NCBI GenBank assembly: GCA_913046215.1
Contig: CAJWRJ010000001.1
Coordinates: 72,897-136,896 of the forward strand
Source: an uncultured Legionellales bacterium
GTDB taxonomy: Bacteria; Pseudomonadota; Gammaproteobacteria; Eutrophobiales; Eutrophobiaceae
Length of the DNA: 64,000 nucleotides
Direction: 5' to 3'
Positions 32,810-47,990 of this stretch are shown here, one piece after another. The notes beneath the pieces were generated by a model. It worked only from the letters and a program-made list of their open reading frames with translations. It searched no databases and had not been told where the DNA came from. Each line of letters starts with the position of its first letter. The stretch's first letter is position 1. A program made the position numbers and the translations under genes.

Positions 32810-32901
32810 GGAGAGGTGGCCGAGTGGCTGAAGGCGCTCCCCTGCTAAGGGAGTATACGGTTTATCCCGTATCGAGGGTTCGAATCCCTCCCTCTCCGCC
32901 A
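32810..32901 (+). tRNA. tRNA-Ser (anticodon GCT)
   Basis: GGAGAGGTGGCCGAGTGGCTGAAGGCGCTCCCCTGCTAAGGGAG...long variable arm...GGTTCGAATCCCTCCCTCTCCGCCA. Cloverleaf with a 7-bp acceptor stem, GCT anticodon and encoded CCA. Confidence 0.9.
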
Positions 32902-33034
32902 AAAAACAGATTCTAAAATCGAGATTCAGCCTCAATTGTCAAGGTTCATTTCAGGACAGCCAATATTTTACACTTAAAAAACTGTCCTAATTATAGGTAT
33001 AATTGACTCATATACTACGAAAGTGCCAATAATA

Positions 33035-34390
33035 ATGAAAAAAAAATATAAAAACTTTCATATTTTTGTCGGGCTGTTACTTGTGTTAAAAGTATCAATC
33101 ACCACAGCTGAAACATTACCTCAGTATGGCAAAGATATGCATCTAGGAGTACAAACTTGCTCAGGATCAACATGTCATGGTGCCGTTCAACCATGGCAGA
33201 ATTCATCTGTGCTTCAGAATGAAGCAATTACTTGGAAAAAATATGATCATCATGCTCGTGCTTTTAAGACATTAGCAAGCGAGCGTTCAAAACGTATTGC
33301 AAAAAATTTGGGAATAGAAAACCCGCAGAAAGATAATGTGTGTTTAAACTGTCATGCAAATAATGTTCCCAAAGAAAAACGTGCTAAAAATTTCATGATA
33401 AGTGATGGTGTTACCTGCGAAGCATGCCATGGAGGTGCAGAAAAATGGCTAGGCATTCATGTTTCCGGAGTGGGTGGACGTGAAGAAAATATTAAAGCTG
33501 GGCAGTACCCAACCGAGGAGCCTTTAGCTAGAGCAAAACTTTGTTTAAGTTGTCATTATGGTACTGAAAATAAATTTCTTACACATAGAATAATGGGTGC
33601 AGGCCATCCAAGGTTAGCTTTTGAACTTGACACATATACTGCGACACAACCAGCACATTACAAAGTTGATGCAGATTATAGACAAAGGAAAAGATGGAGC
33701 AATGGTGTTAGAACATGGGCAATCGGACAGGCAGTTGCTGTCGAAGAAACCTTAAATGCGTTGACAGATAAAAATAGAAATCGCCAAGGTATTTTTCCTG
33801 AACTTGTATTCTTCGATTGCCATGCTTGTCACCACCCTATGTCTAATCTTCGCTGGGAGCGAAGAGATAGTGTAGGTCTTGATCCTGGAATTCCAAAACT
33901 AAATGACGCAAACATTGTAATGTTGCGAGTAATTTCTTCTGTAGTTGATCCAGAACTTGGTAAGCGTATAGAAGAAGAGACTAAACGGTTACATCAAGCA
34001 TCAATGAAAGGCGGTGATGCAACGTTTGAAGCCGCGGATGTTTTGAGATCAACCTTAAAAGGCGTTGTTCAAAAGATTAGTAAACATACTTTTAATCAAA
34101 AAGAAATGGAAAAAATACTTAATGCGCTCTTAGAGTTTGGATTTCATGGTGAATATGTTAATTACATAGCAGCTGAACAGGCTACTTACTCAATTGGTAG
34201 CGTCATCGAGGCTATGAAAGATAGTGGAATGATAAGAGGGAAGGCGATTGAAAAAGTTAAAAAAGCAATGGACATGGCCTACGAAGCGGTTAAATCTGAT
34301 GAAAAGTATCGTCCTTCAGAATTTGTCAAAGCAATTGAAAATATAAAAAAATCCGTAAGTCCGGAATTACAGCTTTCAAAAAAACACTAG
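33035..34390 (+). CDS. secreted pentaheme c-type cytochrome (4 CXXCH + 1 CX4CH) with a non-heme alpha-helical C-terminal domain
   Basis: Signal peptide MKKKYKNFHIFVGLLLVLKVSITTAETL. Heme sites CSGSTCH, CLNCH, CEACH, CLSCH and CHACH fall in the first ~270 aa. The remaining ~180 aa are heme-free and predicted helical. Confidence 0.8.
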   Translation: MKKKYKNFHIFVGLLLVLKVSITTAETLPQYGKDMHLGVQTCSGSTCHGAVQPWQNSSVLQNEAITWKKYDHHARAFKTLASERSKRIAKNLGIENPQKDNVCLNCHANNVPKEKRAKNFMISDGVTCEACHGGAEKWLGIHVSGVGGREENIKAGQYPTEEPLARAKLCLSCHYGTENKFLTHRIMGAGHPRLAFELDTYTATQPAHYKVDADYRQRKRWSNGVRTWAIGQAVAVEETLNALTDKNRNRQGIFPELVFFDCHACHHPMSNLRWERRDSVGLDPGIPKLNDANIVMLRVISSVVDPELGKRIEEETKRLHQASMKGGDATFEAADVLRSTLKGVVQKISKHTFNQKEMEKILNALLEFGFHGEYVNYIAAEQATYSIGSVIEAMKDSGMIRGKAIEKVKKAMDMAYEAVKSDEKYRPSEFVKAIENIKKSVSPELQLSKKH

Positions 34391-34516
34391 GTGATTAGCC
34401 AAAATCTGGACAAAATTACGACCTAAATTATCATCAAGTGTTTTATAGAATAATATTATTAGATAGTGTATTTTTTCAGTATGAGATTAGAAAAATCACC
34501 GAATGTAAGTCAATAT

Positions 34517-36349
34517 ATGGTATTTCCAAAAAAGACACTTTTTTTACTCGTAGGCATTATTTTTTTCAGTGTCTCAAGTGCTAATGAACCTATTATAGAT
34601 CAAGACCTAAAATTACCCGATAATTATCAATCTCAGTGGGAGAAAGTTGCTGGTGATTCTGAACCCGTAATGCCAGGCGGGGGAGACGGATTAGATCCAC
34701 ATCTTAAAATATTACAACAATCGAAATATCCATCAGCTGCACTTTGTGGAAGATGTCACCAGCGTATTTTTACTGAGTGGGCTTCATCAAACCATGCTTA
34801 TGCATCAATTTCGCCAATGTTTCACAAGTTTGAGCAAGCGGTCAATGCATTGACGTCTGGCACGATGGGTACTTTTTGCGTGCGTTGTCATCAACAAGTC
34901 GGTACTCAAGTCGGAGAAACTCGCGAAGCACCTCTTTGGGAACGTTCACAAGTTGCTAGAGAAGGTATCACATGCATTACTTGCCATAGAGTTAATCAAG
35001 CGTTTGGAAAAGTAAATGGCGAGCGTCACATACAGCCAGGGACTATTTACGAACCAGTATATAATACTGGCGATGCGCCAGGTGTTGCAGAGGTGATATC
35101 TGAACGTGATTATTATAAAGTTGCAACGAATCCTGACGAGGAAGGCTTCCCGATACACGGCGGCGCTCAAGTTTTCGAGACAATTGGAGAGTCTGAGTTT
35201 TGTGTTTCATGCCATCAGGTCGCAGTTAATTTAGGAATTAAGTTAGAAGTTGTATGGGAACAGTACCGTGATAGTCCTGCGCATGCGAAGGGCGTGACTT
35301 GTCAAGAGTGTCATATGGGCAAGATTCCGGGAGAAGCAAAAGGCTATGATACTGGACCTGTTGCTATAGTTAATGGACGCGTTGTTGGAGATCCAAATCG
35401 TAAACATTCAAATCATGCATTTTACGGACCCGGTTATCCAATTGCTCACCCTGGTTTATTTCCATTTAATGTGCGTTCATTGAAATGGTCTGTAAAAGAG
35501 TGGCTGACATTTAATTATCGAAAGCCATGGGGTAAGCCTGATTGGGAGGATAAGCTCGAACAAGGATTGGTGGAAAAACCAGAATTTCCTGAAATATGGT
35601 CGACTAGACAGGCACGAGAAGAAGCTAGATACATAATTGGCCAGAACAATAAATTGCTCGAGAATAAAAAGCTAGATCGTTTAGCTGTAATGGAAAATGG
35701 AAGCCGTATTGATGGACCATTTTTTGATAATGGTAAACCAGAAATGGGAAAAGATTTAAAATTTCGTTATCGAATTACAAATGTTGATGAGGGACACAAT
35801 CTTCCATCTGGTTCTTTAGGCGCACAACCAGAAATCTGGCTCAATGTCGTACTCACAGATCCTGATGGCGAACGTGTATTTGAATCAGGATATGTTGACA
35901 AGTACGGAGATATGGTTGATTTACATTCGTTAGAGTTGGCCGAGGGCACAATAGAACACGATGATCAACTTTTTAATCTACAAACAAAATTTTTGACAAC
36001 CAATATTAAAGGTACTGATCGCGAGATGTATCTGCCTGTTAATTTCGATATAGATCAACTCCCATTTTTAAGACCTGCCCCACAACCAACGACTGTCATG
36101 AATCATCCACCTTTCGTGAGAATGGAGGGTCGTTCAATACCACCTTTAGCTTACCGTGATGCTAAATATAAAGTCTCCGGTGATTTAATAAAAAAATCTG
36201 GCACATATAAATTACAAGTAAGAATGCGAAGTCGTGCGGAACCAATTTATTTTATGAAATTTGTTGGTGCAACACTTGATATGGAAAAAAGAATTAATGA
36301 CTGGATGATTGATATTCATCCATACTCAGTCGATTTTGATATCAATTAA
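34517..36349 (+). CDS. secreted pentaheme c-type cytochrome with a ~300-aa non-heme C-terminal domain
   Basis: Likely start MVFPKKTLFLLVGIIFFSVSSANEP (signal peptide). Heme sites CGRCH, CVRCH, CITCH, CVSCH and CQECH. The track ORF begins at 34466. Confidence 0.8.
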   Translation: MVFPKKTLFLLVGIIFFSVSSANEPIIDQDLKLPDNYQSQWEKVAGDSEPVMPGGGDGLDPHLKILQQSKYPSAALCGRCHQRIFTEWASSNHAYASISPMFHKFEQAVNALTSGTMGTFCVRCHQQVGTQVGETREAPLWERSQVAREGITCITCHRVNQAFGKVNGERHIQPGTIYEPVYNTGDAPGVAEVISERDYYKVATNPDEEGFPIHGGAQVFETIGESEFCVSCHQVAVNLGIKLEVVWEQYRDSPAHAKGVTCQECHMGKIPGEAKGYDTGPVAIVNGRVVGDPNRKHSNHAFYGPGYPIAHPGLFPFNVRSLKWSVKEWLTFNYRKPWGKPDWEDKLEQGLVEKPEFPEIWSTRQAREEARYIIGQNNKLLENKKLDRLAVMENGSRIDGPFFDNGKPEMGKDLKFRYRITNVDEGHNLPSGSLGAQPEIWLNVVLTDPDGERVFESGYVDKYGDMVDLHSLELAEGTIEHDDQLFNLQTKFLTTNIKGTDREMYLPVNFDIDQLPFLRPAPQPTTVMNHPPFVRMEGRSIPPLAYRDAKYKVSGDLIKKSGTYKLQVRMRSRAEPIYFMKFVGATLDMEKRINDWMIDIHPYSVDFDIN

Positions 36350-36359
36350 AAAAAAGATC

Positions 36360-38825
36360 ATGCCTCTAAAACATAATAAATTAAATAAGATTTATAGTTT
36401 ATTTTTATATAGTGCACTAGTTTTATTTTCATACCAGCAGCCATTATATGCGGATGTGTTGACTTCAGTTAATGATTGGGCGAAGGCTTGGGCATCACAA
36501 AATGTTGATCAATATTTTGAAAGTTATGCTGAAGATTTTGCGCCCTCTCAAGAACATACTAAAAAAACTTGGAAATCTCAAAGAGAGAGTAGATTGTTGT
36601 CTCCAAGTTTTATCAAGGTGACATTATCTAATATAGAAATCAGCCAGCACTCTGAGGATTTTGCTGATGTGCTTTTTACACAAAACTATAAGTCAGATAG
36701 CTATTCTGATGAAGTGACAAAACAATTGAGAATGCAAAAAATTGATGACAAATGGCTGATTATAAAGGAAAAAACTATAAAAATAAGACAGAAAACAGAA
36801 CTCCAATTAGTGAAAAAAAATGAGGTTTTAGAGGACACCACAACAGTCCAAATCGAACATGATGTTAAAGAGGCCTTGAATAGTTGGTCAAAGGTTTGGT
36901 CATCTCAGGATATTGATGGTTATTTTGCAGCTTACGCTGAAGATTTTTCGCCATCCAACATATCAAACAAAAAAAAATGGAAAAAACAACGTCATAATAG
37001 AGTCATTAGTCCAAGCTATATAAAGGTAACTCTTACTGATGTGAAGATTACACAACACAGTAAAAATAATGTCGACGTAGTATTTAATCAAAATTATGAA
37101 TCTAGTAATCACAGCGATGATGTTAGAAAACTTATTTCCATGCAGAGGGAAAATGAGCGATGGTTGATCACCAAGGAGAGAGTAAAAAAAGTTTTGATTG
37201 ATATTAGTGAAGACCTATCTTCACAAGACAAAACTAATCTTATAGCAGAATTAGATTCTCACAGTGATAGTTCAATAAATTATGCAGATGTTGTTCCTGT
37301 TGAAGATGATTTGAAAGATGAAAGTATTTTACGAAGAAGAGATGTACCCGCCGATACTGTTTTAGAGAAGAGAAGTGGTAGTCCTAAACATAAAAGTCAC
37401 CAAGCGCCACCCGAAATGGATCCTCATGTTCGTCCATCTGAATTTGAGCCAGATCTTTTTGGAAGTGATCCAGTATATCCAGATAATGTTTATGATGTTG
37501 CTGAGCAAATAAAAATTTATGGTGGAAAAACTCCATTTGATGAACCACGTCCAATACTAGAATTTGGTTATCCTCTTTATTCCGAGGGTGCTTTGGGTAG
37601 AACCTATGATGTTATTGGAGAGAAAAACTTGTTAAGACCACAGCTACTTGTATACGGTGATTTTAGAAGTGCTCTTGCTTTTAACGACAATGGCAACAAG
37701 GAGATTGGTCAGATCGCTGCAAGGTTGAATCTTGATGTTGATTTAAAATTAACCGCAACAGAACGTATTCATCTTTTTCTTCGTCCTATTGATAAAAATA
37801 ATAATTTTCTTCGTCACGAGTTTTTTGGCGATGATCATAATGACTTCGATTTTGTGTTAGATGCAAATCTTGAGACTATTTATTTTGAGGGTGATATAGG
37901 GGCCATTCAATCGGGATTAACAAATGAATGGGCAACTTATGATTTGCCCTTTGCTATTGGTTTCATGCCTTTGCTTTTTCAGAATGGAATATGGCTTGAT
38001 GACGCATTTGTAGGTGCTGCATTTGCTATTCCAGCGATGAATTCTCCAAAGTACGATATATCAAATATGGATATTAGCTTTTTCACTGGTTTTGACAAAG
38101 TAACAACTGCAGCATTAAAAAATGGAGCTGGTCAAATAGAGGATAGTAAGGGAAATGTTTTTGGTGTAAATGCATTCGTGGAAACTCGACAAGGATACTT
38201 AGAAGCCGGTTATGGTTTCATTGATGATAAACGTAATGGAAATATATTAAGTGGTTTTGATCATCATAGTTTGACTGCAGCATGGACAAAGAGATATAGA
38301 GGGAAACTTTCAAACTCAATACGTGGTATCTGGACATTTGGACAAACTCCGAATGGAGGCAATACCCAGACTGCTGATGGGTTTGTCATTCTCATAGAGA
38401 ACTCACTTATAACTAGCAAGCCATCAACTTTAATTCCATATGGCAATTTTTACGTTGGTGTGGATAGACCTCAACCACTTGTACGTGGCAATGATGGGCT
38501 TCTTAAAAATACAGGAATAGTCTTTGAAACCGACGGTTTAACAGGATTTCCAAAACTTGATTCCTCTGCTCAAGATGTATTTGGTGGCGCAATTGGTATT
38601 CAATACCTCTTTGATTTATCTAGACAGGCTGTATTTGAAGTTGCAACTGTTCAGCCATTTGGCGGTCAGTCTGCGACGATTGTTGGCGATCAGTACGGAT
38701 TGAGCGCACGATATCAGCATAATTTAAATGATCGTTGGCTTATAAGGACGGACGCAATGATTGGAATTCTTAATAATGCAGAGAATATTTCTGGTATTCG
38801 TCTCGAATTGCGCCGTAAATTCTAA
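36360..38825 (+). CDS. outer-membrane beta-barrel protein with two tandem N-terminal NTF2/SnoaL-like domains (putative porin partner of the cytochromes)
   Basis: Signal peptide MPLKHNKLNKIYSLFLYSALVLFSYQQPLYA. Two ~110-aa repeats (VNDWAKAWASQNVDQYFESYAEDFAPS...WLIIKEK and LNSWSKVWSSQDIDGYFAAYAEDFSPS...WLITKER). The ~540-aa C-terminal region shows alternating amphipathic strands and a terminal ...GIRLELRRKF, the OMP C-terminal Phe signature. Confidence 0.6.
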   Translation: MPLKHNKLNKIYSLFLYSALVLFSYQQPLYADVLTSVNDWAKAWASQNVDQYFESYAEDFAPSQEHTKKTWKSQRESRLLSPSFIKVTLSNIEISQHSEDFADVLFTQNYKSDSYSDEVTKQLRMQKIDDKWLIIKEKTIKIRQKTELQLVKKNEVLEDTTTVQIEHDVKEALNSWSKVWSSQDIDGYFAAYAEDFSPSNISNKKKWKKQRHNRVISPSYIKVTLTDVKITQHSKNNVDVVFNQNYESSNHSDDVRKLISMQRENERWLITKERVKKVLIDISEDLSSQDKTNLIAELDSHSDSSINYADVVPVEDDLKDESILRRRDVPADTVLEKRSGSPKHKSHQAPPEMDPHVRPSEFEPDLFGSDPVYPDNVYDVAEQIKIYGGKTPFDEPRPILEFGYPLYSEGALGRTYDVIGEKNLLRPQLLVYGDFRSALAFNDNGNKEIGQIAARLNLDVDLKLTATERIHLFLRPIDKNNNFLRHEFFGDDHNDFDFVLDANLETIYFEGDIGAIQSGLTNEWATYDLPFAIGFMPLLFQNGIWLDDAFVGAAFAIPAMNSPKYDISNMDISFFTGFDKVTTAALKNGAGQIEDSKGNVFGVNAFVETRQGYLEAGYGFIDDKRNGNILSGFDHHSLTAAWTKRYRGKLSNSIRGIWTFGQTPNGGNTQTADGFVILIENSLITSKPSTLIPYGNFYVGVDRPQPLVRGNDGLLKNTGIVFETDGLTGFPKLDSSAQDVFGGAIGIQYLFDLSRQAVFEVATVQPFGGQSATIVGDQYGLSARYQHNLNDRWLIRTDAMIGILNNAENISGIRLELRRKF

Positions 38826-38834
38826 ATAATTATA

Positions 38835-40532
38835 TTAAATTTTTTCTTTTGGCATCATCAAGTCTTCGCGATGAAAGCCATGACATTCAGTACAGGTGCT
38901 TTTTACTTTTGTTGTCGTTGTTTCTCCACCATGGCATTCCTGACAAGTTGTAATTGACGGGAGCAGTATATCGGTAGCTTTTTCACTTTTTGTTGCATCA
39001 TGACATGTTGTACATTCTCTATCTTTGTGCGGTTTATGATTAAAGAAACTTTTTGGTAGCCACTTTGTTGGTACATGAACAGTTGCTATATCCCATCTAC
39101 CCGTTTTTTTATTTTCTACAATTTGGTGACATTCTCCACATAGTCCACGACCATATCTTCCTTGTACAATTTCTTCGGCTTTTGCTTCAGCCCATTCTAG
39201 AGCCGCCTTCTTTTTTTCTTTAGTATCAGGTTTATCGCCTATTAGTTTACGAAAAGTTGATGTTTCATCATTTAATGTATTTGACTCAATAAAATTGCCT
39301 CGAAGTGCAAACTCGGCATATGTTCCTATAATATATTCTTTTGCTAAAGAAATATTTCCATGCGGCATCTCTCTATTAGGTGCTTGAGGTTCAAATTTTA
39401 AGTCGTGGCAACTGGCGCAGTGTTTTTCAAAACTTACAGGGAGTAAAGCAACACCTCCAGTTTCAGGCTCATGGCAGAATCCACACTGAAGAACCGTTCG
39501 TGTTCCATTTGGATGTCTAACTCCATTTTCTTTTAGATGCTTATTATGTGGAAATTTCAAATTCGATCGATCTATTGGTTTTGGTTTTTTTTGATCAATC
39601 GTCACTCTCTCAAAAGTTAAAGGCTGATGAGTTTTTATGAGTGTAGGACGAAATTGAGGATGTTCGTTAAAGTTTGAGACATTTTTTAATTTAGAATTCT
39701 CAGCAACATCTAGGATTTCACTATGGCAGTTGCTACAAAATCTTTCAGTGGTGATAAGCAAGCCCTGATCGCCATTATGTTCTTTATGACAATCCTGACA
39801 CTGTTGTCCATCTAAAGAGGCGCTTGGAAATATAGACGGGTCCGCATGGTGCCCGGCATCATCATGACAATCAAAACATACTTTATTTCCTACTTGTTGA
39901 AATGCATCTGTATGGCATGTTTCGCAGCGATCGCCAAAATGTGCATGCACACTAGAATGAGGGCCTGACAACCAAATTTTATCAGCGGTTGCTAAAATTC
40001 CATTTTTTTTTGTTTCACTTACTGTTTCATTTTTTTTATATTTTATCGTATATGCGGTAAGTGGCCCCAATATTCCAAGCGTGATAATTCCAATAAATAA
40101 AACCCACGCCCATCCTCTAGTACTGAGTCCAAGCGAATCAAACTGTGTATTTGATCGTTTTTTAAATGCTTCTAATTCATCACCTAGTGGACGCGAGTAC
40201 TCAATAGTTAATACAGCATCATATCCATCTTCATTATCTAAGACCTCGATATCATATGGACCAAGATGAATTTTATCTCCCGTTTTTACGGTTGATTTAG
40301 TAAGGATTTGATCATTAACCTGAAAATCACTATCTCCTTGACCCTCTAAGTATAGTTCTCCCGAACGCTCTGTTATTTCAAGTTGAATTAATAGAATTCT
40401 TGGATCAGTTAAGTGAACCTCGCATTCTGAACCACGTCCAAAGCGAATTGCAGGAGATTCTATATCTTCGTCACGCTGAGCATATCCCCCAGAACGAGTT
40501 TTTTTAAGAAGATGTCTAATAAGTACTTTCAT
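38835..40532 (-). CDS. FHA-domain / single-TM / periplasmic decaheme c-type cytochrome fusion
   Basis: 565 aa. N-terminal FHA-like fold (IRFGRGSECEVHLTDPRILLIQLEITERSGELYLEGQGDSDFQVNDQIL...GDKIHLGPYDIEV), TM helix (WAWVLFIGIITLGILGPLTAY), then ten CXXCH sites: CETCH, CFDCH, CQDCH, CSNCH, CGFCH, CASCH, CGECH, CTTCH, CQECH, CTECH. Confidence 0.75.
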   Translation of the reverse strand: MKVLIRHLLKKTRSGGYAQRDEDIESPAIRFGRGSECEVHLTDPRILLIQLEITERSGELYLEGQGDSDFQVNDQILTKSTVKTGDKIHLGPYDIEVLDNEDGYDAVLTIEYSRPLGDELEAFKKRSNTQFDSLGLSTRGWAWVLFIGIITLGILGPLTAYTIKYKKNETVSETKKNGILATADKIWLSGPHSSVHAHFGDRCETCHTDAFQQVGNKVCFDCHDDAGHHADPSIFPSASLDGQQCQDCHKEHNGDQGLLITTERFCSNCHSEILDVAENSKLKNVSNFNEHPQFRPTLIKTHQPLTFERVTIDQKKPKPIDRSNLKFPHNKHLKENGVRHPNGTRTVLQCGFCHEPETGGVALLPVSFEKHCASCHDLKFEPQAPNREMPHGNISLAKEYIIGTYAEFALRGNFIESNTLNDETSTFRKLIGDKPDTKEKKKAALEWAEAKAEEIVQGRYGRGLCGECHQIVENKKTGRWDIATVHVPTKWLPKSFFNHKPHKDRECTTCHDATKSEKATDILLPSITTCQECHGGETTTTKVKSTCTECHGFHREDLMMPKEKI

Positions 40533-40535
40533 TTC

Positions 40536-41378
40536 TTACCAATAAAAAAATACAGCTAGTATGTGAGAGAAAAGTGCAGCCAATAAACCTATCGATAGTG
40601 GAATATGAAAAAATAACCACACTCTTAGAATTACTTTTATTTGAATATCGCGTCTCGCTCGTCTGAGTAATTTTGTTTTTTTTGCAAGTAAAGCGATTAC
40701 CTTTGATATGTTTTGATCGCGAAGACCCATATCAGCAAATTTTTCTTCAATTAAATTCCTAGCATTTAGGGTTGGACAGTCAATATTTTTTGGTGATAAT
40801 TTTTCTATTATATTTCCACCTATACTAGTCTCAGTGGCTGCTTTAAGTAGAGCCGTATTTATTTCTTCAGGCAGTTGCTGACCAGCTTTAAGAATATCTT
40901 GATCTAGTTCTGAAATTTGCCCCATCATTTCATCTAGAGACAGTCCAGCTCGATTTTTTGTCATTAGCTTTGGATAATATGCATAAATAAATACCCCAAC
41001 AACACCACTTAACACAGTTAACAGCATAAGGATGTAAGCAATGGAATGGATATTCCATCCAATCTGAAAACCACTATGTAGAGTTGCGGTAACTACAAGA
41101 GCGAGTCCAAGATAAATATGAGCAGACAACCAAACCTTTAATCCTGTTGCACTAACAGCATATTGCCTTTTTCTAACTCCAAACCAAGTTAACCACAAAA
41201 CTAAAACAGCTGAAATTATCCCCAATGTGTATCCAAGCCATGATCCGCCATTTGGTTCACCCAGGGGGTTATGCCATATATAAAGAACGATTGAGATAAA
41301 AGCCAATGCGACGGCATACCAAAGAAACTTGAGACCTTTATAGATAAAAAAAGAATCATGGACATTACGTGAACTCAT
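40536..41378 (-). CDS. polytopic inner-membrane protein with conserved intramembrane His (putative b-heme / quinol-interacting subunit)
   Basis: Start MSSRNVHD, placed by a TGATATG stop/start junction with the upstream gene; 280 aa. Five TM helices with His in helices 3-5 (LSAHIYLGL, WNIHSIAY, FFHIPLSIGLLAALFSHIL). A ~100-aa soluble loop lies between TM4 and TM5. The track ORF is extended to 41579. Confidence 0.55.
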   Translation of the reverse strand: MSSRNVHDSFFIYKGLKFLWYAVALAFISIVLYIWHNPLGEPNGGSWLGYTLGIISAVLVLWLTWFGVRKRQYAVSATGLKVWLSAHIYLGLALVVTATLHSGFQIGWNIHSIAYILMLLTVLSGVVGVFIYAYYPKLMTKNRAGLSLDEMMGQISELDQDILKAGQQLPEEINTALLKAATETSIGGNIIEKLSPKNIDCPTLNARNLIEEKFADMGLRDQNISKVIALLAKKTKLLRRARRDIQIKVILRVWLFFHIPLSIGLLAALFSHILAVFFYW

Positions 41379-41379
41379 A

Positions 41380-43788
41380 TCACTCGCTCCCGTCTCTAAT
41401 AAAGTCCATGAATTCGTCTGGTTTGACACGTATCGCCGCCCCAGTTGGGCAAGCACGCACACAAGCAGCACCACCTTTAATATCCTTACACATATCGCAC
41501 TTAACTGCTGTTTTGCGAGCATCCTCCGGTGCTCTTTCTCGGTAACCATAGTCTTCGCCTGGTCCAGGACCTTTTCCAAAAAGAAGCCAAGAAAACAAAT
41601 TTGGTTTTTCTGGTGGTTCAGGCGCCATTTGAATTACCCCATATGGGCAATTTTTTTGGCAGTTACCACAACCAATACAGTCATTTGTAATGTAAACTTC
41701 ACCGTCAGGGTTTCTTTTAATAGCATCGGGAGGACAGTCCGTCATACAGTGCGGATGTTCGCAATGTCGGCAACTTGTTGGAACATGCACGTTTGCAAAT
41801 GTTGGTCCTGCCTCACGATTTAATCTCGAAATACCCCTGTGTGTCTCGGCACAGGCTTTTTCACAATTATCACATCCAACACATAACGATTCGTTTATTA
41901 AAAGCACATCAGTTGCTTCACCTATACCTTCTCCCATTAAAAATTCTACAATACTTCCAGCCTCAGGTTGCTCTATCATTTTTTCTGTTGAAACAATACG
42001 TTCACCATATTTCTCTTCGATTTCTTTTTGAAGAGAAGGATTTTCATCAACTAATTTGCGGAAGATTTCACCATCTATCTTAATTGTTTCACAATCAACC
42101 GCGGCTTTAATTGTTGCTGTTCGATTTAAATCTGACATTAATGCCATTTCCCCAACATAATTACCTGCAGCGACGTAAGCAAGGGTTACCTCCTTACCAC
42201 CTATTCGTTTCGATACCATCACTGAGCCTTTACTTATGAGATAAAGCGCATCACCCTCATCACCCTCATTAAATATAACTTTACCTTTACGAAAGGTTTC
42301 TATTGAAGCTGAGTCTGCCAATTTTTGTATTGCATTAATGTCGAGGGCGCTTGCGATATAAGTTTGAATTTGCCTTACGATAGCCTCTTTATCCATAGAA
42401 TTTCGTAAAGAACGGACATCCTCTCTTAATTTAAGCATCGTACGACGAGGCGTTTCAATTAATATCGTATCATCTGCATTAGATAAAATTGTTGCCGAAC
42501 GTCTACGACCCGATATTAATCCCACTTCTCCAAAAAATGCACCTTGCTCCAAGACAACAAACTTAGATGGATCATCCTCGCTAGTTTGTATTTTGACTGA
42601 GCCCCTGAATATTGTGTAGACACTATTCGTATAATCTCCCCGTTCAAAAATTACTGTTCCATTAGGCGGCGCAGTTACGGTTGATTCAACTAACATTTCT
42701 CTTTCCATTAATGGGTTTAGTTCTTCAAATATAGGAAGTCTTGCCCTCACTTCTTTTAAAAAAGAATCATTATCAAAATCCTTTATATCTTTTAAAGTTT
42801 TAGTAATTATTGGTTCATCAGCTGGATCTAATTCCGTGTTACCGTTGATATATTCAATGACTTCATAACCCTGATTTATTGCATGTTTAATTAACGGATA
42901 TCCACCTAAGGAGCCAACTATATATAGGCCTTTAACATTTGATTCGTAGGTTTTGCTTACTTCTGGCAACGCGCTGCGTGCATCAGATGGAAAAGTAACT
43001 CCACAGGCTTCAACAAACTTTCGTGGCGGTGCTGCACCAAGTCTAGCAATCACTCTGTCACACTCTATTGTTACATCGCCATCAGGCGTATCAAAAGTTA
43101 ATGTTCCTTCCGAACATTCCTTTGAACTACTATTGTATAGGGGAGTAATACGTCCTCTATCAATTTCAGCTAAAATAGCCGCTTCATTTGCTTCTTTTGC
43201 ACGTGAAAATTCATTACCACGATTAGCTATATAAACTGTGTTATGCGTACACAAACCAAGTGCATTTTCTATTGCAGCATCACCCGCACCGATAACAATG
43301 ATAGTTTCATGCTCATATTCATCTGGGTCATCTAATTGATATTGAATATGCGTGACATCATCTATTCCAGGTATTCGTAAAGTATTCAGATTACCTTGAA
43401 GACCTATTGCAAGAACGATTGATTCTACTTTAATAATATCTTTATTTTTTAGTGTAAGCTCAAACTTTCCTTTTGTTCCTGAAACAGATTTAACTTCAGA
43501 ATTGTATAGAATATTAACTTGGTGATTTTTTAATGCTAGATTCCATCTATCGAGAACATCTTCTCTGCTTCCCATTTTAAAATCGATATCTGAACGCAAG
43601 GGAAGCACGTCCGGAGTTGCCATAACATGCTTACCTTTTTGAAACTTGTAAATTGTGTCCGATACATGATCTGCTTTTTCAATTAATACATGTCGTAAAC
43701 CTAATACAGATGCATGCGCTGCTGCACTAAGACCAGCTGGTCCAGAACCTATTATTGCAACTTGAAAAATTGATTCTTTACTCGCCAT
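41380..43788 (-). CDS. FAD-dependent pyridine-nucleotide oxidoreductase fused to two cyclic-nucleotide-binding domains and a poly-[4Fe-4S] ferredoxin domain
   Basis: 802 aa. Rossmann fold VAIIGSGPAGLSAAAHA plus a second dinucleotide site IIVIGAGDAAIENA. Two cNMP-binding segments (FFGEVGLISGRRRSATI; YVGEMALMSDLNRTATIKA). C-terminal Cys clusters CVGCDNCEKAC, CRHCEHPHCMTDCP, CIGCGNCQKNCP and CDMCKDIKGGAACVRACP. Confidence 0.8.
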   Translation of the reverse strand: MASKESIFQVAIIGSGPAGLSAAAHASVLGLRHVLIEKADHVSDTIYKFQKGKHVMATPDVLPLRSDIDFKMGSREDVLDRWNLALKNHQVNILYNSEVKSVSGTKGKFELTLKNKDIIKVESIVLAIGLQGNLNTLRIPGIDDVTHIQYQLDDPDEYEHETIIVIGAGDAAIENALGLCTHNTVYIANRGNEFSRAKEANEAAILAEIDRGRITPLYNSSSKECSEGTLTFDTPDGDVTIECDRVIARLGAAPPRKFVEACGVTFPSDARSALPEVSKTYESNVKGLYIVGSLGGYPLIKHAINQGYEVIEYINGNTELDPADEPIITKTLKDIKDFDNDSFLKEVRARLPIFEELNPLMEREMLVESTVTAPPNGTVIFERGDYTNSVYTIFRGSVKIQTSEDDPSKFVVLEQGAFFGEVGLISGRRRSATILSNADDTILIETPRRTMLKLREDVRSLRNSMDKEAIVRQIQTYIASALDINAIQKLADSASIETFRKGKVIFNEGDEGDALYLISKGSVMVSKRIGGKEVTLAYVAAGNYVGEMALMSDLNRTATIKAAVDCETIKIDGEIFRKLVDENPSLQKEIEEKYGERIVSTEKMIEQPEAGSIVEFLMGEGIGEATDVLLINESLCVGCDNCEKACAETHRGISRLNREAGPTFANVHVPTSCRHCEHPHCMTDCPPDAIKRNPDGEVYITNDCIGCGNCQKNCPYGVIQMAPEPPEKPNLFSWLLFGKGPGPGEDYGYRERAPEDARKTAVKCDMCKDIKGGAACVRACPTGAAIRVKPDEFMDFIRDGSE

Positions 43789-44090
43789 GTGGTGATTTTT
43801 TCCCTTTAATTTATTGCAAATTATATCTATTTTTCTTATTCAGGAATGCCAACTATTTTTGCAAAGATTAACAAAAAAATCAGGTCTTTACTTCAATATA
43901 CTAATTATTTTTTTAGTTTTTTTTACTAATTTGACTCAATTTCTATCTAATATATCATTCGGGGCCTAATCTGTATGAGCGCAAACTTACTGTTTGTATA
44001 TTAATTATTACCATAAATTCCTCTGGCAGGTATTAAATACCAAGCCTTTGGTTTATATTATAATGGGAAGTTTACATCAAGATTTGAAAT

Positions 44091-44167
44091 GCGCCCGTAG
44101 CTCAGTTGGATAGAGTACCTGGCTACGAACTAGGGGGTCGGAGGTTCGAATCCTTCCGGGCGCGCCA
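44091..44167 (+). tRNA. tRNA-Arg (anticodon ACG)
   Basis: GCGCCCGTAGCTCAGTTGGATAGAGTACCTGGCTACGAACTAGGGGGTCGGAGGTTCGAATCCTTCCGGGCGCGCCA. 77 nt canonical cloverleaf, close to E. coli argV. Confidence 0.92.
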
Positions 44168-44197: not shown

Positions 44198-44926
44198 TTA
44201 CTGTCGCCTTTTAAGCCACATCCAAATACCGGTAGCGGAAATAACAAGCATTAGAATTGCAACCAGATCCATAAAGTAGGTACCCCATTTTCCTACAACA
44301 CGGCCGCTATGCATATCAAGCAATACTCTTTCAATTGTCAGACCTTTGCCGCGGTACTCGTTAAAAATAGCAATTCTTAGTTTCTCGGATATATTATTTG
44401 ATGTGTCCGACCAATTTGCAGAAAGCAGATCATGTTCATTCCAGTTCAAAATATCCAAATTGACGCGATAATAACCATGTGCCGATTTAATTATTACATT
44501 ATCCTTATCATCAACACCAATTGCTTTCATCCCTGCGGGAACACCCTCGGCACCTGATAAAGATTCTAAAAGTTTACCGTCTTCAGTAAGCACCATTAAT
44601 TTTCCATCATAACCAACGACAAATGTGTTATTTATATAAACAACACCAATTAGGTTTTCTACATTAGTAATAATTTCTATGTCATTGAAATAAACACGTT
44701 GACCAAGTTGTGTTATCCAGTTGTTATTGTAGGAAGGGTATGCGATAGGTTCGGAGTTTGGGCTAATTTGATAAAGATCAAGCAACCATTCCATCTTTAT
44801 AAATGTTGTATTTAACTTGAACTTTTCACTGTGGTTTAATGCGATACCGCTAATAGCAAGAAAAATAACAAATATTACGATGAATATTCCTATCTTTTTG
44901 TGCCACCTTTGTATAAAAAGAAACAT
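44198..44926 (-). CDS. PepSY-associated TM-helix family membrane protein (two TM helices flanking a periplasmic domain)
   Basis: 242 aa. N-terminal QRWHKKIGIFIVIFVIFLAISGIALNH and C-terminal LDMHSGRVVGKWGTYFMDLVAILMLVISATGIWMW are typical PepSY_TM helix signatures with conserved His. Confidence 0.6.
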   Translation of the reverse strand: MFLFIQRWHKKIGIFIVIFVIFLAISGIALNHSEKFKLNTTFIKMEWLLDLYQISPNSEPIAYPSYNNNWITQLGQRVYFNDIEIITNVENLIGVVYINNTFVVGYDGKLMVLTEDGKLLESLSGAEGVPAGMKAIGVDDKDNVIIKSAHGYYRVNLDILNWNEHDLLSANWSDTSNNISEKLRIAIFNEYRGKGLTIERVLLDMHSGRVVGKWGTYFMDLVAILMLVISATGIWMWLKRRQ

Positions 44927-44956
44927 ACACCTATTCTAGGATGCAATTATTTATTT

Positions 44957-45484
44957 TCAATTTTTATTATCGATATATTGATCTAGAAATAGAGCTAGAC
45001 GTGCTAATTTTATCAAAGCATCAACTGACAATGTTGCTCCACTAATACCATCAATTTTTCTATCTAATTTTGTATCAGCCTTAAGAGAGGCATCTGCAAA
45101 TTGTTCTGTAAAAAAAGGATATCTTACTTCCCATCCTCTTGATTCTCTAAAAACTAGTACTTTCACATCTAGAATCTTTCCTTTTGAAGTAACATATCCA
45201 GTCGTAATTGGCTTGTCTCTGCCAATTCTCTCTAAAATCCAGGCTTTTTTAGACCCATCATCCCAATATCGAAGTCGTAATGGCTTGAATTCATCTCCCA
45301 GTATTTTTTTTATTTCTTTCTTTAGCTCTTTTTTAAGCCATAGTTTTTTTGGATTTGGAGGGTTATTGTTAAACACGTCCGATAAAAATTTTTCAGGTTC
45401 TAAGTAAGTTCCCTTTGCATAAGAGTGTAAACTCCAACTCTGAGTTAGTAGAAATAAAAAGATATATAAAGTCAGTTTTGTCAT
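44957..45484 (-). CDS. secreted FMN-binding domain protein (predicted ApbE flavinylation target)
   Basis: 175 aa with a signal peptide. The C-terminal KIDGISGATLSVDAL matches the D-x-[ST]-G-A-T-x-[ST] motif of NqrC/RnfG-type FMN_bind domains, whose Thr (here T151) is covalently flavinylated. Confidence 0.65.
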   Translation of the reverse strand: MTKLTLYIFLFLLTQSWSLHSYAKGTYLEPEKFLSDVFNNNPPNPKKLWLKKELKKEIKKILGDEFKPLRLRYWDDGSKKAWILERIGRDKPITTGYVTSKGKILDVKVLVFRESRGWEVRYPFFTEQFADASLKADTKLDRKIDGISGATLSVDALIKLARLALFLDQYIDNKN

Positions 45485-45589
45485 ATTTAGTTATAAGCCT
45501 ACAAAAAAAATAGGGCACTTACAAAAGTGCCCTAAATATATCACCACGAGGATATTACCGTTGGTACGATAATTCTTAAAATTTATTAT

Positions 45590-47591: not shown

Positions 47592-47990
47592 ATGCATTTA
47601 TGTAAAAAGGTATTTTTTATATTATCGAGTCTAATATTATTCAACCCATTACAAGTGTCTGCTGATGATCATGAAGCAATGCTTACTGCGGGTGAATTAC
47701 TGTCAGGGTGTGAGGAAAATTCCTCACCTGGTGCACCCAACCAGTATTGTATGCGATACCTTTTTGGGTTGATTCAAACTGTACTTACGCTCCAGCAGGC
47801 AGATCAAAGCCCACCGATTTTTTGCATAGATCCACAAGTTACGCCTATACAAGAGGCTACCGACAATATGATTGCACATCTGCGAAGTCAGTCCTCGCGT
47901 TCAAATGAGGATGCACAGAAAATAGTTTTAGAGGGGCTCAATAAAAATTATCCTTGTTCAAATCAATCGAAAAAACCAACCTATCACTAG
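47592..47990 (+). CDS. secreted Cys-containing hypothetical protein
   Basis: 132 aa. Signal peptide (ILFNPLQVSA/DD) and four Cys in the mature region. No recognisable motif. Confidence 0.4.
   Translation: MHLCKKVFFILSSLILFNPLQVSADDHEAMLTAGELLSGCEENSSPGAPNQYCMRYLFGLIQTVLTLQQADQSPPIFCIDPQVTPIQEATDNMIAHLRSQSSRSNEDAQKIVLEGLNKNYPCSNQSKKPTYH

What the first reader, a model, noticed from the sequence alone, without database searches (positions are those of the whole stretch)
32902..44090. Candidate undescribed trans-envelope electron-transfer system: 20-heme cytochrome/porin cluster with an FAD-cNMP-ferredoxin oxidoreductase
Six tightly packed genes form two convergent operons. The plus-strand operon encodes pentaheme cytochrome, pentaheme cytochrome and an 838-aa outer-membrane beta-barrel, the same cytochrome-cytochrome-porin gene order as mtrCAB-type porin-cytochrome conduits. 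The minus-strand operon encodes a cytoplasmic FAD/NAD(P)H oxidoreductase with two cNMP domains and four Fe-S clusters, a His-rich polytopic membrane protein, and an FHA-TM-decaheme cytochrome. The stop/start spacing of 1-3 nt implies translational coupling. Together they provide a complete plausible wire from cytoplasmic NAD(P)H or ferredoxin, across the inner membrane, through periplasmic hemes to an outer-membrane barrel. None of the parts resembles the canonical Mtr, Pio/Mto, Cyc2 or Geobacter Ext/Cbc proteins in domain architecture. The nearby FMN-binding/PepSY/porin operon and apbE point to an envelope redox lifestyle.
Basis: partly seen in the sequence, partly recalled or inferred. Interest (0 to 1): 0.88.

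Follow-up and report, generated by a model that had tools for sequence, protein, structure and literature searches.

The report
NAD(P)H-fed multihaem cytochrome–porin (Ptd-type) cluster
This marine Legionellales bacterium carries a real six-gene cluster that looks built to push electrons from cytoplasmic NAD(P)H across the inner membrane into a chain of 20 c-type haems ending at an outer-membrane barrel; it is a rearranged variant of the recently named but still uncharacterised "ptd" cluster, not an undescribed system.

Summary
There are six tightly packed genes in two convergent operons, exactly between tRNA-Ser and tRNA-Arg, with 5+5+10 haem-c motifs, an outer-membrane barrel, a 5-TM protein and an FAD/2xcNMP/4x[4Fe-4S] protein.

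Four things are added here:
- The 5-TM protein has two His pairs spaced 14 residues apart, conserved down to 21% identity. That marks it as a di-haem b transmembrane carrier of the cytochrome b561/FdnI clan.
- The order F-E-D is conserved in nearly all of about 87 distinct loci from Alpha-, Beta- and Gammaproteobacteria.
- This input module pairs with one of two mutually exclusive output modules. One is B+C, as in the window. The other is an HbpS-like protein, a different barrel and a roughly 1280-aa decahaem/LVIVD protein.
- The barrel resembles 18-strand porins, not MtrB. B belongs to the T. tepidum c552/MccSep pentahaem family.

The system matches the ptdABCDEFG cluster named in a 2023-24 preprint, whose function is unknown. 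The window is a variant of it: it has a different, fused FAD domain, an FHA domain fused to the decahaem, and NTF2 domains on the porin.

Most likely mechanism: cNMP- and phospho-gated electron export from NAD(P)H towards the outer membrane. Whether electrons actually cross the outer membrane is unresolved, and the acceptor is unknown.

The parts
32810..32901 (+). tRNA-Ser(GCT); left boundary of the cluster, downstream of alaS-lysC-csrA
   Evidence: ARAGORN. The same tRNA flanks the cluster in the related Legionellales MAG L012. csrA is called just upstream in the public contigs.
33035..34390 (+). A: periplasmic pentahaem cytochrome c (c554-like haem domain plus a roughly 190-aa C-terminal domain). 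Distant counterpart of PtdD.
   Evidence: Has a Sec-type signal peptide and 4 CxxCH + 1 CxxxxCH. Matches PF13435 at 1.1e-10. Five haem motifs and 5-6 further His are conserved in 39 homologues. A homologue lies within 10 kb of D in 48 of about 87 loci. It is 24-29% identical to the 305-319-aa cytochrome of canonical ptd loci.
34481..36349 (+). B: periplasmic pentahaem cytochrome with a large C-terminal domain carrying the GHNLPSG loop (= PtdA). The start is ambiguous: 34466, 34481 or 34517.
   Evidence: Five invariant CxxCH. The family profile hits the T. tepidum pentahaem c552 (5ze8) at 1e-18 and MccSep (9wt9) at 5e-4. B is always the gene directly upstream of C. The family has 208 clusters at 50% identity with E<=1e-30.
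36360..38825 (+). C: outer-membrane protein (= PtdB). Signal peptide, two NTF2-like (Csd6/Cds6_C) domains (about 36456-37178), then a beta-barrel of roughly 18 strands (about 37557-38822) ending in ...LELRRKF.
38835..40532 (-). D: inner-membrane-anchored decahaem cytochrome c, a distant counterpart of PtdG. Cytoplasmic FHA domain (40260-40448), one TM helix (about 40044-40112), periplasmic 10-haem domain (38880-39926).
   Evidence: FHA PF00498 scores 24.6 bits against a cut-off of 20.7; Paired_CXXCH and c3/c7 domains also match. Ten CxxCH plus ten further conserved His (nine invariant, H229 conserved in at least 90%) across 17 sequences down to 26% identity, which implies all-bis-His ligation. 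352 matching stretches in the GTDB species genomes encode a confirmed relative.
40536..41378 (-). E: 280-aa, 5-TM membrane protein, predicted di-haem cytochrome b (= PtdF). It has a roughly 70-aa cytoplasmic helical insert between TM4 and TM5.
41380..43788 (-). F: cytoplasmic flavo-iron-sulfur protein. YpdA/TrxR-type FAD/NAD(P)H domain (42868-43767), two cNMP-binding domains (about 41968-42663), four-cluster ferredoxin domain (41395-41907). Its cNMP+FeS part corresponds to PtdE; its FAD domain takes the place of PtdC.
   Evidence: Pfam: Pyr_redox_3 2.4e-31, cNMP_binding 4.9e-35 (two stretches), Fer4_7/Fer4_11. PDB: Bdr/YpdA 7a7b 1e-24, PKA-R/PKG cNMP domains, HycB 7z0s_B 8e-19 over residues 630-785. 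There is no signal peptide. The sequence has GSGPAG, with no CxxC or YpdA-type Cys, and phosphate-binding-cassette motifs GE..RRRSAT and GE..NRTAT (read directly).
44091..44167 (+). tRNA-Arg(ACG); right boundary of the cluster
   Evidence: ARAGORN. The same tRNA flanks the cluster in L010 and L012.

Best explanation
The locus encodes a Ptd-type, quinone-independent electron-export chain.

Inferred path. Cytoplasmic NAD(P)H reduces the FAD of F. Electrons run through F's four [4Fe-4S] clusters to two stacked b haems in the 5-TM protein E, and so cross the inner membrane. They then enter the ten bis-His c haems of D, which is anchored beside E by one helix. The soluble pentahaem A passes them on to the pentahaem B, which works together with the outer-membrane barrel C. 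The acceptor sits at or beyond the outer membrane; a candidate is Fe(III) or another extracellular or outer-membrane-level oxidant.

Inferred control. Flux is gated from the cytoplasm by cyclic nucleotide binding to F and by phospho-threonine recognition through the FHA domain of D.

What is shown and what is inferred. Shown: domain content, cofactor-binding motifs and their conservation, predicted topology, gene linkage and modularity. Inferred: the order of carriers, the direction of flow, complex formation between B and C, and the acceptor.

The window's version combines a close PtdA/PtdB pair with a divergent 'FHA-type' F-E-D-A input module. In most other genomes that input module drives a different outer-membrane/extracellular output module.
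For: Cofactor chain:
- F combines a YpdA/TrxR-type flavoprotein lacking any redox Cys, two cNMP domains and a HycB-like four-cluster ferredoxin, with no export signal.
- E has two His pairs with 14-residue spacing on two parallel TM helices, conserved even at 21% identity, and belongs to the cytochrome b561/FdnI clan.
- D has ten CxxCH plus ten conserved distal His behind one TM helix.

Linkage:
- The order F-E-D holds in nearly all of about 87 distinct loci across three proteobacterial classes, with 1-3 nt gaps in the window.
- Five Burkholderiales/Betaproteobacteria MAGs have a colinear F-E-D-A-B-C string.

NAD(P)H as the cytoplasmic partner:
- In canonical ptd loci the FAD domain is missing from the cNMP/FeS protein. 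A separate FNR-type FAD_binding_6/NAD_binding_1/Fer2 protein is encoded next to the porin instead. This is a non-orthologous replacement of the same function.

Destination at the outer membrane:
- The input module is followed either by B-C (16 loci) or by an HbpS-like protein, an unrelated barrel ending ...LTY, and a roughly 1280-aa decahaem/LVIVD protein (42-45 loci, often beside T2SS genes). The two never occur together.
- B is always directly upstream of C.

Regulation:
- FHA and cNMP modules are present in both lineages, fused or as adjacent genes.
- A CHASE2-guanylate cyclase and a GAF-HD protein lie next to the cluster in L091 and L093.

Direction:
- Moving electrons outward from NAD(P)H (about -320 mV) is downhill and is helped by the membrane potential (established bioenergetics).

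Expression:
- ptdA and ptdB are transcribed in situ in ODZ Alphaproteobacteria.
Against: - No experiment exists for any member of the family.
- B has an ordinary signal peptide and no lipobox. Its only characterised relative, MccSep, is a soluble periplasmic polysulfide reductase with a catalytic haem.
- Only four non-motif His are conserved for B's five haems. One haem may therefore be catalytic rather than a relay.
- E belongs to a clan whose members usually bind quinones, so a quinone-coupled mode is not excluded.
- Equivalence with the published Ptd proteins rests on architecture and a shared c552 homologue, not on direct alignment to the authors' sequences.
Confidence: 0.45

Rival explanations
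1. The NAD(P)H-to-periplasm supply chain is the same (F-E-D-A), but B is a catalytic periplasmic terminal reductase and C is its dedicated substrate or product channel. On this reading electrons never cross the outer membrane. A soluble oxidant, for example a sulfur, nitrogen or halogen oxyanion or a polysulfide-like species, diffuses in through C and is reduced at one special haem of B.
For: - The B profile matches the c552/MccSep pentahaem family, including the GHxxPxG loop that carries the catalytic Sec in MccSep.
- MccSep is a soluble periplasmic polysulfide reductase in which haems 1, 3, 4 and 5 are bis-His and haem 2 is the active site.
- B conserves only four non-motif His for five haems.
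- The C model is closest to 18-strand substrate-specific channels: OccD/OprD, chitoporin, AlgE, maltoporin.
- C is unusually conserved, with many invariant charged and polar residues, as expected of a specific channel.
- Elbon et al. also raise a nitrogen-cycle role.
Against: - B lacks the equivalents of MccSep C239 and U325; the aligned positions are hydrophobic and Ser.
- B scores 35 bits against the 250-bit cut-off of the ExtKL/MccSep model.
- The alternative output module that replaces B-C in most genomes looks extracellular: a large decahaem/LVIVD protein, its own barrel and adjacent T2SS genes.
- In the sampled loci B-C was never seen with any other kind of electron-input module.
Confidence: 0.3
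2. The chain runs inward. Electrons taken from an extracellular or periplasmic donor (Fe(II), reduced sulfur, a cathode) pass through B/A/D and E to F, which reduces NAD(P)+ for biosynthesis.
For: Relatives of the D/E/F trio occur in lithotrophs and electrode communities: Ferrigenium straubiae, Thiomargarita, Sulfuriflexus and Candidatus Venteria MAGs, and a 'Biocath_Alpha' MAG.
Against: - Reducing NAD(P)+ from Fe(II)-level donors is strongly uphill. Moving electrons to the negative side of the membrane costs further energy, and no proton- or ion-coupling subunit is present (established bioenergetics).
- Most carriers are aerobic marine heterotroph lineages: SAR116, Legionellales, Rhodospirillaceae, Sphingomonads.
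Confidence: 0.07
3. E is a quinone-reactive cytochrome b, like FdnI/HydC/CybB or the b domain of CbcL. F-E would then act as an NAD(P)H:quinone oxidoreductase, and D would draw electrons from the quinol pool. The system would be a branch of the respiratory chain rather than a direct NAD(P)H-to-haem-c wire.
For: E belongs to the PF01292 clan, whose characterised members bind quinones (from general knowledge). The best natural structural match is CybB.
Against: - No quinone-site residues could be identified.
- H111, the only additional invariant His, is not conserved in canonical PtdF.
- The tight three-gene coupling, and the conserved cytoplasmic insert in E that could dock F, fit direct transfer.
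Confidence: 0.1

Closest known systems
ptdABCDEFG cluster (Elbon et al., bioRxiv 10.1101/2023.11.21.568154; marine ODZ Alphaproteobacteria UBA11136; function unknown)
   Same: The parts list is the same: a pentahaem with a beta-sandwich, homologous to T. tepidum c552 (B = PtdA); an adjacent porin (C = PtdB); an FAD/NAD(P) oxidoreductase function; a small periplasmic multihaem (A ~ PtdD); a cNMP + 4Fe-4S protein (F C-terminal part ~ PtdE); a TM protein (E ~ PtdF); and a decahaem (D ~ PtdG). B and C are 62-65% and 54-58% identical to those of canonical seven-gene loci.
   Different: - The FAD domain is of another fold family (Pyr_redox_3/YpdA-type rather than FNR/Fer2-type) and is fused to the cNMP/FeS protein.
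- D carries a fused FHA domain.
- C carries two NTF2-like domains.
- The genes are split into two convergent operons.
- A, D, E and the FeS part of F are only 21-31% identical to the canonical counterparts. They belong to a lineage that usually pairs with a different output module.
MtrCAB / PioAB / MtoAB porin-cytochrome conduits
   Same: The logic is the same: periplasmic multihaem cytochromes are encoded next to an outer-membrane beta-barrel.
   Different: - There is no sequence membership. DmsE/MtrA model: 22-29 bits against a 192-bit cut-off. OmcA/MtrC model: 19 bits against 209. No MtrB_PioB hit.
- There is no surface decahaem lipoprotein.
- Input comes from an NAD(P)H flavoprotein rather than from quinol via CymA.
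FdnH-FdnI / HycB-type ferredoxin with a cytochrome b561-clan di-haem subunit; Geobacter CbcL (di-haem b fused to a 9-haem c domain)
   Same: A four-cluster ferredoxin module (F C-terminus, HycB 8e-19) is adjacent to a four-His di-haem b membrane subunit of the PF01292 clan. As in CbcL, a di-haem b is coupled to a periplasmic multihaem c (CbcL architecture from general knowledge).
   Different: The ferredoxin module is on the cytoplasmic side and fused to a flavoprotein. The b and c cytochromes are separate polypeptides. No quinone role is demonstrated. E matches PF01292 only below the gathering threshold.
TmcABCD / HmcABCDEF transmembrane redox complexes of sulfate reducers
   Same: The overall layout is shared: a periplasmic multihaem c3-type cytochrome, a membrane cytochrome b and a cytoplasmic Fe-S protein linking periplasmic and cytoplasmic redox pools (from general knowledge; weak TmcA hit at 8e-5).
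   Different: The cytoplasmic subunit here is an NAD(P)H flavoprotein with cNMP domains, not a CCG-type heterodisulfide-reductase-like protein. No family model reaches its cut-off.
MccSep (ExtKL) polysulfide reductase and T. tepidum pentahaem cytochrome c552 (5ze8)
   Same: B shares the five-haem N-terminal domain and the C-terminal domain with the GHxxPxG loop. The profile scores E 1e-18 to 5ze8 and 5e-4 to MccSep.
   Different: B lacks the Cys and Sec catalytic residues of MccSep. It is about 170 aa longer, falls below the ExtKL model cut-off (35 against 250 bits), and is always paired with a barrel.
Eukaryotic NOX/FRE/STEAP NAD(P)H-driven transmembrane reductases
   Different: The families are different: only 1 of 27 E homologues touches PF01794, at E 0.024. 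Four Fe-S clusters are inserted between flavin and haem, and 20 c haems and an outer-membrane barrel are added downstream.

Membership tests
Ptd cluster (Elbon et al. 2023/24) | [quoted passage not shown] | tested here: met
   B has five invariant CxxCH. The B-family profile hits 5ze8 at E 1e-18 across the haem domain and the GHxxPxG loop.
Ptd cluster (Elbon et al. 2023/24) | PtdB: a porin encoded directly after PtdA | tested here: met
Ptd cluster (Elbon et al. 2023/24) | PtdC: a separate FAD/NAD(P)-binding (FNR/flavohaemoprotein-like) oxidoreductase | tested here: not met
   The window has no such gene. The function is supplied by a Pyr_redox_3/YpdA-type domain fused to F. Canonical loci L091-L095 do have the separate FAD_binding_6/NAD_binding_1/Fer2 protein.
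Ptd cluster (Elbon et al. 2023/24) | PtdD: a periplasmic tetrahaem | tested here: met
   A has 4 CxxCH plus a conserved CX4CH, and shows homology to the 305-319-aa cytochrome of canonical loci at 24-29% identity, E 2e-13.
Ptd cluster (Elbon et al. 2023/24) | PtdE (cNMP-binding + 4Fe-4S protein), PtdF (TM protein) and PtdG (decahaem), in that order | tested here: met
   The order F(cNMP+Fer4)-E-D is present. Homology to canonical loci is 29-31% for F, 21-24% for E (with all four TM His conserved) and 25-27% for D.
Ptd cluster (Elbon et al. 2023/24) | Direct sequence identity with the authors' reference proteins (e.g. IMG Ga0066848_100031354) | not testable with these tools
   The IMG sequences could not be fetched. 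Equivalence rests on architecture, on the shared c552 homologue, and on loci L091-L095, which match the published description.
MtrCAB-type porin-cytochrome conduit | A MtrA/DmsE-family periplasmic decahaem (TIGR03508) | tested here: not met
   A scores 22.3 bits and B 29 bits against a cut-off of 192.2.
MtrCAB-type porin-cytochrome conduit | A MtrB/PioB-family barrel of about 26 strands | tested here: not met
MtrCAB-type porin-cytochrome conduit | A surface decahaem lipoprotein of the OmcA/MtrC family (TIGR03507) | tested here: not met
   The best score is 19.3 bits against a cut-off of 209.3. None of A, B or C has a lipobox.
Cyc2 fused cytochrome-porin | A haem-c motif fused to the barrel | tested here: not met
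   C contains no CxxCH.
Prokaryotic cytochrome b561 / FdnI / HydC clan (PF01292) | A four-helix core with four conserved His binding two b haems | tested here: met
   H87/H101 and H258/H272 are invariant, including in remote PtdF. 22/27 homologues hit PF01292, but mostly below the gathering score; the window protein itself scores E 0.018. Haem binding itself is untested.
MccSep/ExtKL multihaem (seleno)enzyme (NF040886) | A model score above cut-off, with Cys239 and Sec/Cys325 at the active-site haem | tested here: not met
   B scores 35 bits against a cut-off of 250. It has no conserved non-motif Cys, and the residue after GHNLPSG is Ser.
YpdA/Bdr or thioredoxin-reductase disulfide reductases | A redox-active Cys (YpdA GxGPCG) or CxxC | tested here: not met
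   F has GSGPAG and no CxxC in its flavoprotein domain (sequence). TIGR04018 scores 136 bits against a cut-off of 340. F is therefore a flavin electron-transfer domain rather than a disulfide reductase.

The most novel reading that the evidence does not exclude
The F-E-D core may be a bacterial counterpart, in function, of NOX/ferric-reductase enzymes. On this reading it is a cyclic-nucleotide- and phosphothreonine-gated, quinone-independent NAD(P)H oxidase that pushes electrons across the inner membrane and, through interchangeable outer-membrane modules, out of the cell. Because it occurs in abundant oxic-ocean lineages (SAR116, marine Legionellales, Rhodospirillaceae), it could be the unidentified machinery behind reductive iron acquisition or extracellular superoxide production by marine heterotrophic bacteria.
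Probability: 0.15. Interest if true: 0.9.

Novelty: new variant of a known kind. Interest (0 to 1): 0.6.

Why it matters
If the mechanism holds, this is a widespread route by which aerobic and microaerobic proteobacteria spend cytoplasmic NAD(P)H on acceptors outside the inner membrane without using the quinone pool. The D scan alone confirmed 352 relatives among GTDB species genomes, and the barrel family has more than 1500 90%-identity clusters.

The route is under second-messenger control. That bears on open questions in marine biogeochemistry: who reduces iron in oxygen-deficient and oxic waters, and which enzymes produce extracellular reactive oxygen species.

It also bears on the diversity of extracellular electron transfer beyond Mtr and Geobacter systems.

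The comparative results give concrete, testable handles that the two descriptive preprints did not provide:
- four conserved His in the membrane subunit;
- non-orthologous replacement of the NAD(P)H module;
- two mutually exclusive output modules.

Tried and rejected
- **Literature.** Searches for FHA + multihaem + cNMP, LVIVD + multihaem, and SAR116 + EET returned nothing relevant. The Uet cluster of Tenderiales turned out to be a different system.
- **Single-sequence PDB searches.** Searches with A, B, the C barrel and D gave no significant relatives. Only a family profile of B reached c552/MccSep.
- **Common origin of the two barrels.** Rejected: hhalign probability 0.7%. B shows no detectable similarity to the 1280-aa decahaem of the other module.
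- **Recent genomic island between the two tRNAs.** Not supported. The GC3 of the six genes (0.22-0.275) is the same as that of host core genes, and the same tRNAs flank the cluster in the related Legionellales MAGs L010 (tRNA-Arg only) and L012 (both). An old transfer from Alphaproteobacteria remains possible, because the convergent layout and 55-80% identity are shared with Pacificispira-like loci.
- **PepSY_TM/FMN_bind/OMP operon and apbE as part of the system.** Rejected, because they co-occur only within Legionellales.
- **Promoter and terminator scans.** Nothing above shuffled expectation.
- **Tool limits.** The first genome scan with the 17-sequence D alignment failed for lack of a conserved stretch. 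The afdb50 fold library was unavailable.

Full report

Yes. The interval 32902-44090 is exactly the space between tRNA-Ser(GCT) at 32810-32901 and tRNA-Arg(ACG) at 44091-44167. It holds six long ORFs and nothing else of size.

Plus strand:
- A starts at GTG 33023 or ATG 33035 and ends at 34390.
- B runs 34466-36349. Its signal peptide begins at the Met encoded at 34517.
- C has its ATG at 36360 and ends at 38825.

Minus strand:
- F runs 43788-41380.
- E runs 41378-40536. It is 280 aa; the 347-aa ORF that overlaps F is an artefact of upstream TTG/GTG codons, and every public gene call uses the 280-aa start.
- D runs 40532-38835.

The gaps are 1 nt (F to E), 3 nt (E to D), 10 nt (B to C), and 9 nt between the convergent stops of C and D.

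Haem-c motifs:
- A has four CxxCH and one CxxxxCH.
- B has five CxxCH.
- D has ten CxxCH.

All of these are conserved in homologues.

Pfam domains:
- D has FHA plus c3/c7/paired-CxxCH domains.
- F has Pyr_redox_3, two cNMP_binding domains and 4Fe-4S dicluster domains.
- A and B have c554-like haem domains.
- C has two Cds6_C NTF2-like domains at its N-terminus.
- E and the C-terminal 440 aa of C have no significant Pfam hit.

The rest of the window is core chromosome: rpoA, gatAB, mreBC, PBP2, rodA, lipBA, xseA, guaBA, recA, alaS, lysC, with csrA just upstream of tRNA-Ser.

**2. Source organism**

The exact D protein is found on Tara Oceans and other marine contigs and in a single-cell/MAG assembly. 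The closest genomes are marine planktonic 'Legionellales bacterium' MAGs.

**3. What each part is**

*F.* F has no export signal. Its parts are:
- The N-terminal 300 aa resemble YpdA/Bdr and TrxR-type flavoproteins (7a7b, 1e-24). The glycine-rich loop reads GSGPAG, and there is no CxxC, so this is a flavin/NAD(P)H electron-transfer domain and not a disulfide reductase.
- Two cNMP domains with canonical phosphate-binding cassettes.
- A 16-Cys, four-group ferredoxin module that aligns end to end with HycB (7z0s_B, 8e-19).

*E.* The AF2 model predicts five TM helices and a roughly 70-aa cytoplasmic helical insert (pLDDT 82).
- In 27 homologues the invariant His are H87 and H101 on TM3, H258 and H272 on TM5, plus H111.
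- Both TM helices run from cytoplasm to periplasm by the positive-inside rule. Each His pair is spaced 14 residues, which is the classic bis-haem pattern.
- These four His, but not H111, are also conserved in five canonical PtdF proteins that are only 21-24% identical.
- 22 of 27 family members hit PF01292 (prokaryotic cytochrome b561), and 7 hit DUF4405.

I conclude that E is a di-haem b transmembrane electron carrier. Haem binding is inferred, not shown.

*D.* The layout is cytoplasmic FHA, one TM helix, then a periplasmic decahaem domain. The FHA domain has the conserved GR..S..H..N pattern. Ten CxxCH and ten further conserved His (nine invariant, H229 in at least 90% of sequences) hold across 17 sequences down to 26% identity. 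That indicates ten bis-His relay haems.

*A.* A is a soluble pentahaem with enough conserved His for bis-His ligation.

*B.* B is a soluble pentahaem (signal peptide, no lipobox) followed by about 330 aa.
- A family profile hits the T. tepidum pentahaem c552 at 1e-18.
- It hits the newly solved MccSep at 5e-4, including the GHxxPxG loop.
- MccSep is a periplasmic polysulfide reductase whose haem 2 is catalytic, served by Cys239 and Sec325. B has neither residue.
- B conserves only four non-motif His for its five haems.

*C.* The C-terminal 479 aa give an all-beta AF2 model (pLDDT 71, pTM 0.66).
- MtrB scores only 12.9.
- The protein ends in the usual aromatic beta-signal.
- The barrel family is large (at least 1531 hits), entirely unannotated, and unusually conserved: 52-70% identity between classes, with more than 100 invariant residues in 28 sequences.
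- The two NTF2-like domains occur only in the Legionellales versions.

**4. Comparative genomics**

A pattern scan of one genome per GTDB species confirmed 352 matching stretches that encode a D relative. They come from Alpha-, Beta- and Gammaproteobacteria and include cultured species (Oceanibacterium hippocampi, Desertibaculum subflavum, Zavarzinia sp.) and SAR116 single cells. Sphingomonad carriers came from the protein search.

The results over about 87 distinct loci are:
- The order F-E-D is essentially universal.
- An A homologue lies within 10 kb in 48 loci.
- The genes after D fall into two mutually exclusive sets.

*Type I output (42-45 loci).* This set consists of a roughly 149-aa protein, a roughly 676-aa protein with three HbpS-like domains, a roughly 622-aa protein with a signal peptide and a ...LTY beta-signal, and a roughly 1280-aa decahaem protein with LVIVD repeats. 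In SAR116 and others it lies beside GspD and prepilin-peptidase genes.

*Type II output (16 loci).* This is B-C, as in the window. It occurs in three layouts:
- convergent to F-E-D (Legionellales, Pacificispira-like Alphaproteobacteria);
- colinear F-E-D-A-B-C (five Burkholderiales/Betaproteobacteria MAGs);
- standing alone as A-B-C (L090).

The two barrels are not detectably homologous, and neither are B and the 1280-aa cytochrome.

*Starting from C instead.* In six of six contexts B is directly upstream of C. Five of those show a seven-gene colinear cluster:
- a small c554-like cytochrome;
- a cNMP+Fer4 protein with no FAD domain;
- a 5-TM protein;
- a decahaem without FHA;
- B;
- C;
- a separate FNR-type FAD_binding_6/NAD_binding_1/Fer2 protein.

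Stand-alone FHA proteins lie next to the cluster in two of these loci. A CHASE2-guanylate cyclase and a GAF-HD protein lie nearby in two others.

Compared with these canonical loci, the window's B and C are close (62-65% and 54-58% identity). Its A, D, E and the FeS part of F are remote (21-31%). The window therefore joins a canonical output pair to the divergent 'FHA-type' input lineage.

**5. Comparison with the literature**

The seven-gene cluster is the ptdABCDEFG operon named by Elbon et al. (bioRxiv 10.1101/2023.11.21.568154). Their description is:
- PtdA, pentahaem with a beta-sandwich and a c552 homologue;
- PtdB, porin;
- PtdC, FAD/NAD(P) oxidoreductase;
- PtdD, tetrahaem;
- PtdE, cNMP + 4Fe-4S;
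- PtdF, TM 'ferric reductase-like';
- PtdG, decahaem.

The cluster is transcribed in ODZ Alphaproteobacteria, is said to be prevalent in marine and saline MAGs, and its 'function remains completely unknown'.

A 2026 preprint on Ferrigenium straubiae independently notes an FHA-bearing nonahaem next to a 5-TM protein and a 4Fe-4S protein. It found no redox motif in the TM protein.

Neither paper mentions Legionellales or SAR116, the four-His pattern, the fused Pyr_redox-type architecture, or the alternative output module (and my reading of the texts).

This locus is a new architectural variant of a named but uncharacterised kind.

**6. Mechanism**

The best-supported reading is outward electron export. 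The path runs from NAD(P)H to FAD, through four [4Fe-4S] clusters in F, to two b haems in E that span the inner membrane. It continues through the ten c haems of D and the five of A to the five of B at barrel C.

Support for NAD(P)H as the cytoplasmic partner comes from the non-orthologous replacement of the flavoprotein module between lineages.

Support for a destination at the outer membrane comes from three points:
- both alternative outputs contain a barrel next to multihaem proteins;
- the two outputs are mutually exclusive;
- type I looks extracellular.

The direction is inferred from thermodynamics. Outward flow from about -320 mV is downhill and is aided by the membrane potential. Inward reduction of NAD(P)+ would be strongly uphill, and no coupling subunit is present.

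The cNMP and FHA modules are conserved in both lineages. This suggests that the flux is gated from the cytoplasm, which is sensible for a pathway that drains reducing power.

**7. What remains open**

The outer-membrane step is unresolved.
- An 18-strand barrel is too small to sheath a folded pentahaem in the way MtrB sheaths MtrA.
- B's characterised relative is a soluble enzyme.
- One of B's haems may be non-bis-His.

The main rival keeps the same supply chain but makes B a periplasmic terminal reductase and C its substrate channel. A quinone-coupled role for E is also not excluded.

No tool available here could predict the B-C complex or identify the acceptor.

**8. Verdict**

The feature is real, widespread and mechanistically suggestive, but it has already been named in the literature. 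I score interest at 0.6 and rate it a new variant of a known kind.

Noticed in passing
L045:11713-19708 (SAR116 SAG); the same block in L017-L089, e.g. L023:11812-19709: In about 45 loci the F-E-D module is followed by a different conserved block. It consists of a roughly 149-aa secreted protein, a roughly 650-aa protein with three HbpS-like (PF03928) domains, a roughly 600-aa outer-membrane barrel ending ...LTY, and a roughly 1265-aa decahaem protein with LVIVD repeats. T2SS genes (GspD, prepilin peptidase) and an A homologue are often adjacent. I found no description of this module in the literature searched.
   Followed up: partly
window 44198-46756 (-) and 55766-56767 (-): There is an operon of an outer-membrane-barrel-like protein (388 aa, ends ...GVGYSF, no Pfam hit), a secreted FMN_bind protein (175 aa) and a PepSY_TM protein (242 aa). 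An ApbE flavin transferase lies 9 kb further on. The operon is conserved only in the marine Legionellales relatives (for apbE this was not checked). It is possibly a separate flavin-based periplasmic redox system.
   Followed up: partly
window 32810-32901 and 44091-44167: The 11-kb cluster sits between tRNA-Ser(GCT) and tRNA-Arg(ACG), directly after alaS-lysC-csrA. These two tRNA genes are adjacent downstream of csrA in E. coli (from memory). The same flanks occur in two related Legionellales MAGs. GC3 is host-like, so any insertion is old.
   Followed up: partly
window 36456-37178 (+): The porin C carries two tandem NTF2-like Cds6_C domains. The best PDB match is 7o21, which I recall, untested, as the peptidoglycan-editing enzyme Bd1075 of Bdellovibrio. 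These domains are absent from all non-Legionellales homologues. They may be a periplasmic anchoring or targeting add-on.
   Followed up: no
L091:17812-21533 and L093:17836-21530: A CHASE2-guanylate/adenylate cyclase and a GAF-HD protein lie about 5 kb downstream of canonical ptd clusters. Stand-alone FHA proteins (and a VWA-FHA protein) flank the clusters in L092 and L094. This fits cyclic-nucleotide and phosphothreonine control of the system.
   Followed up: no
window 47592-48893 (+): A Rap1a-family protein (T6SS-effector immunity family) and a five-repeat Sel1 protein sit together with no T6SS genes in the window.
   Followed up: no
window 26064-26960 (-): A WYL-domain protein is encoded on the opposite strand between cinA and recA.
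   Followed up: no
window ~20000: GC content steps from about 0.32 to about 0.40 at 20 kb and stays higher to about 44 kb. The higher-GC stretch covers guaBA, recA, alaS and lysC as well as the cluster, so it is not specific to the cluster.
   Followed up: partly
P0342-P0348 (B-family representatives): Many B-family proteins are 800-1200 aa, with the B-like 550-aa unit at the C-terminus and a long N-terminal extension that has no Pfam match.
   Followed up: no
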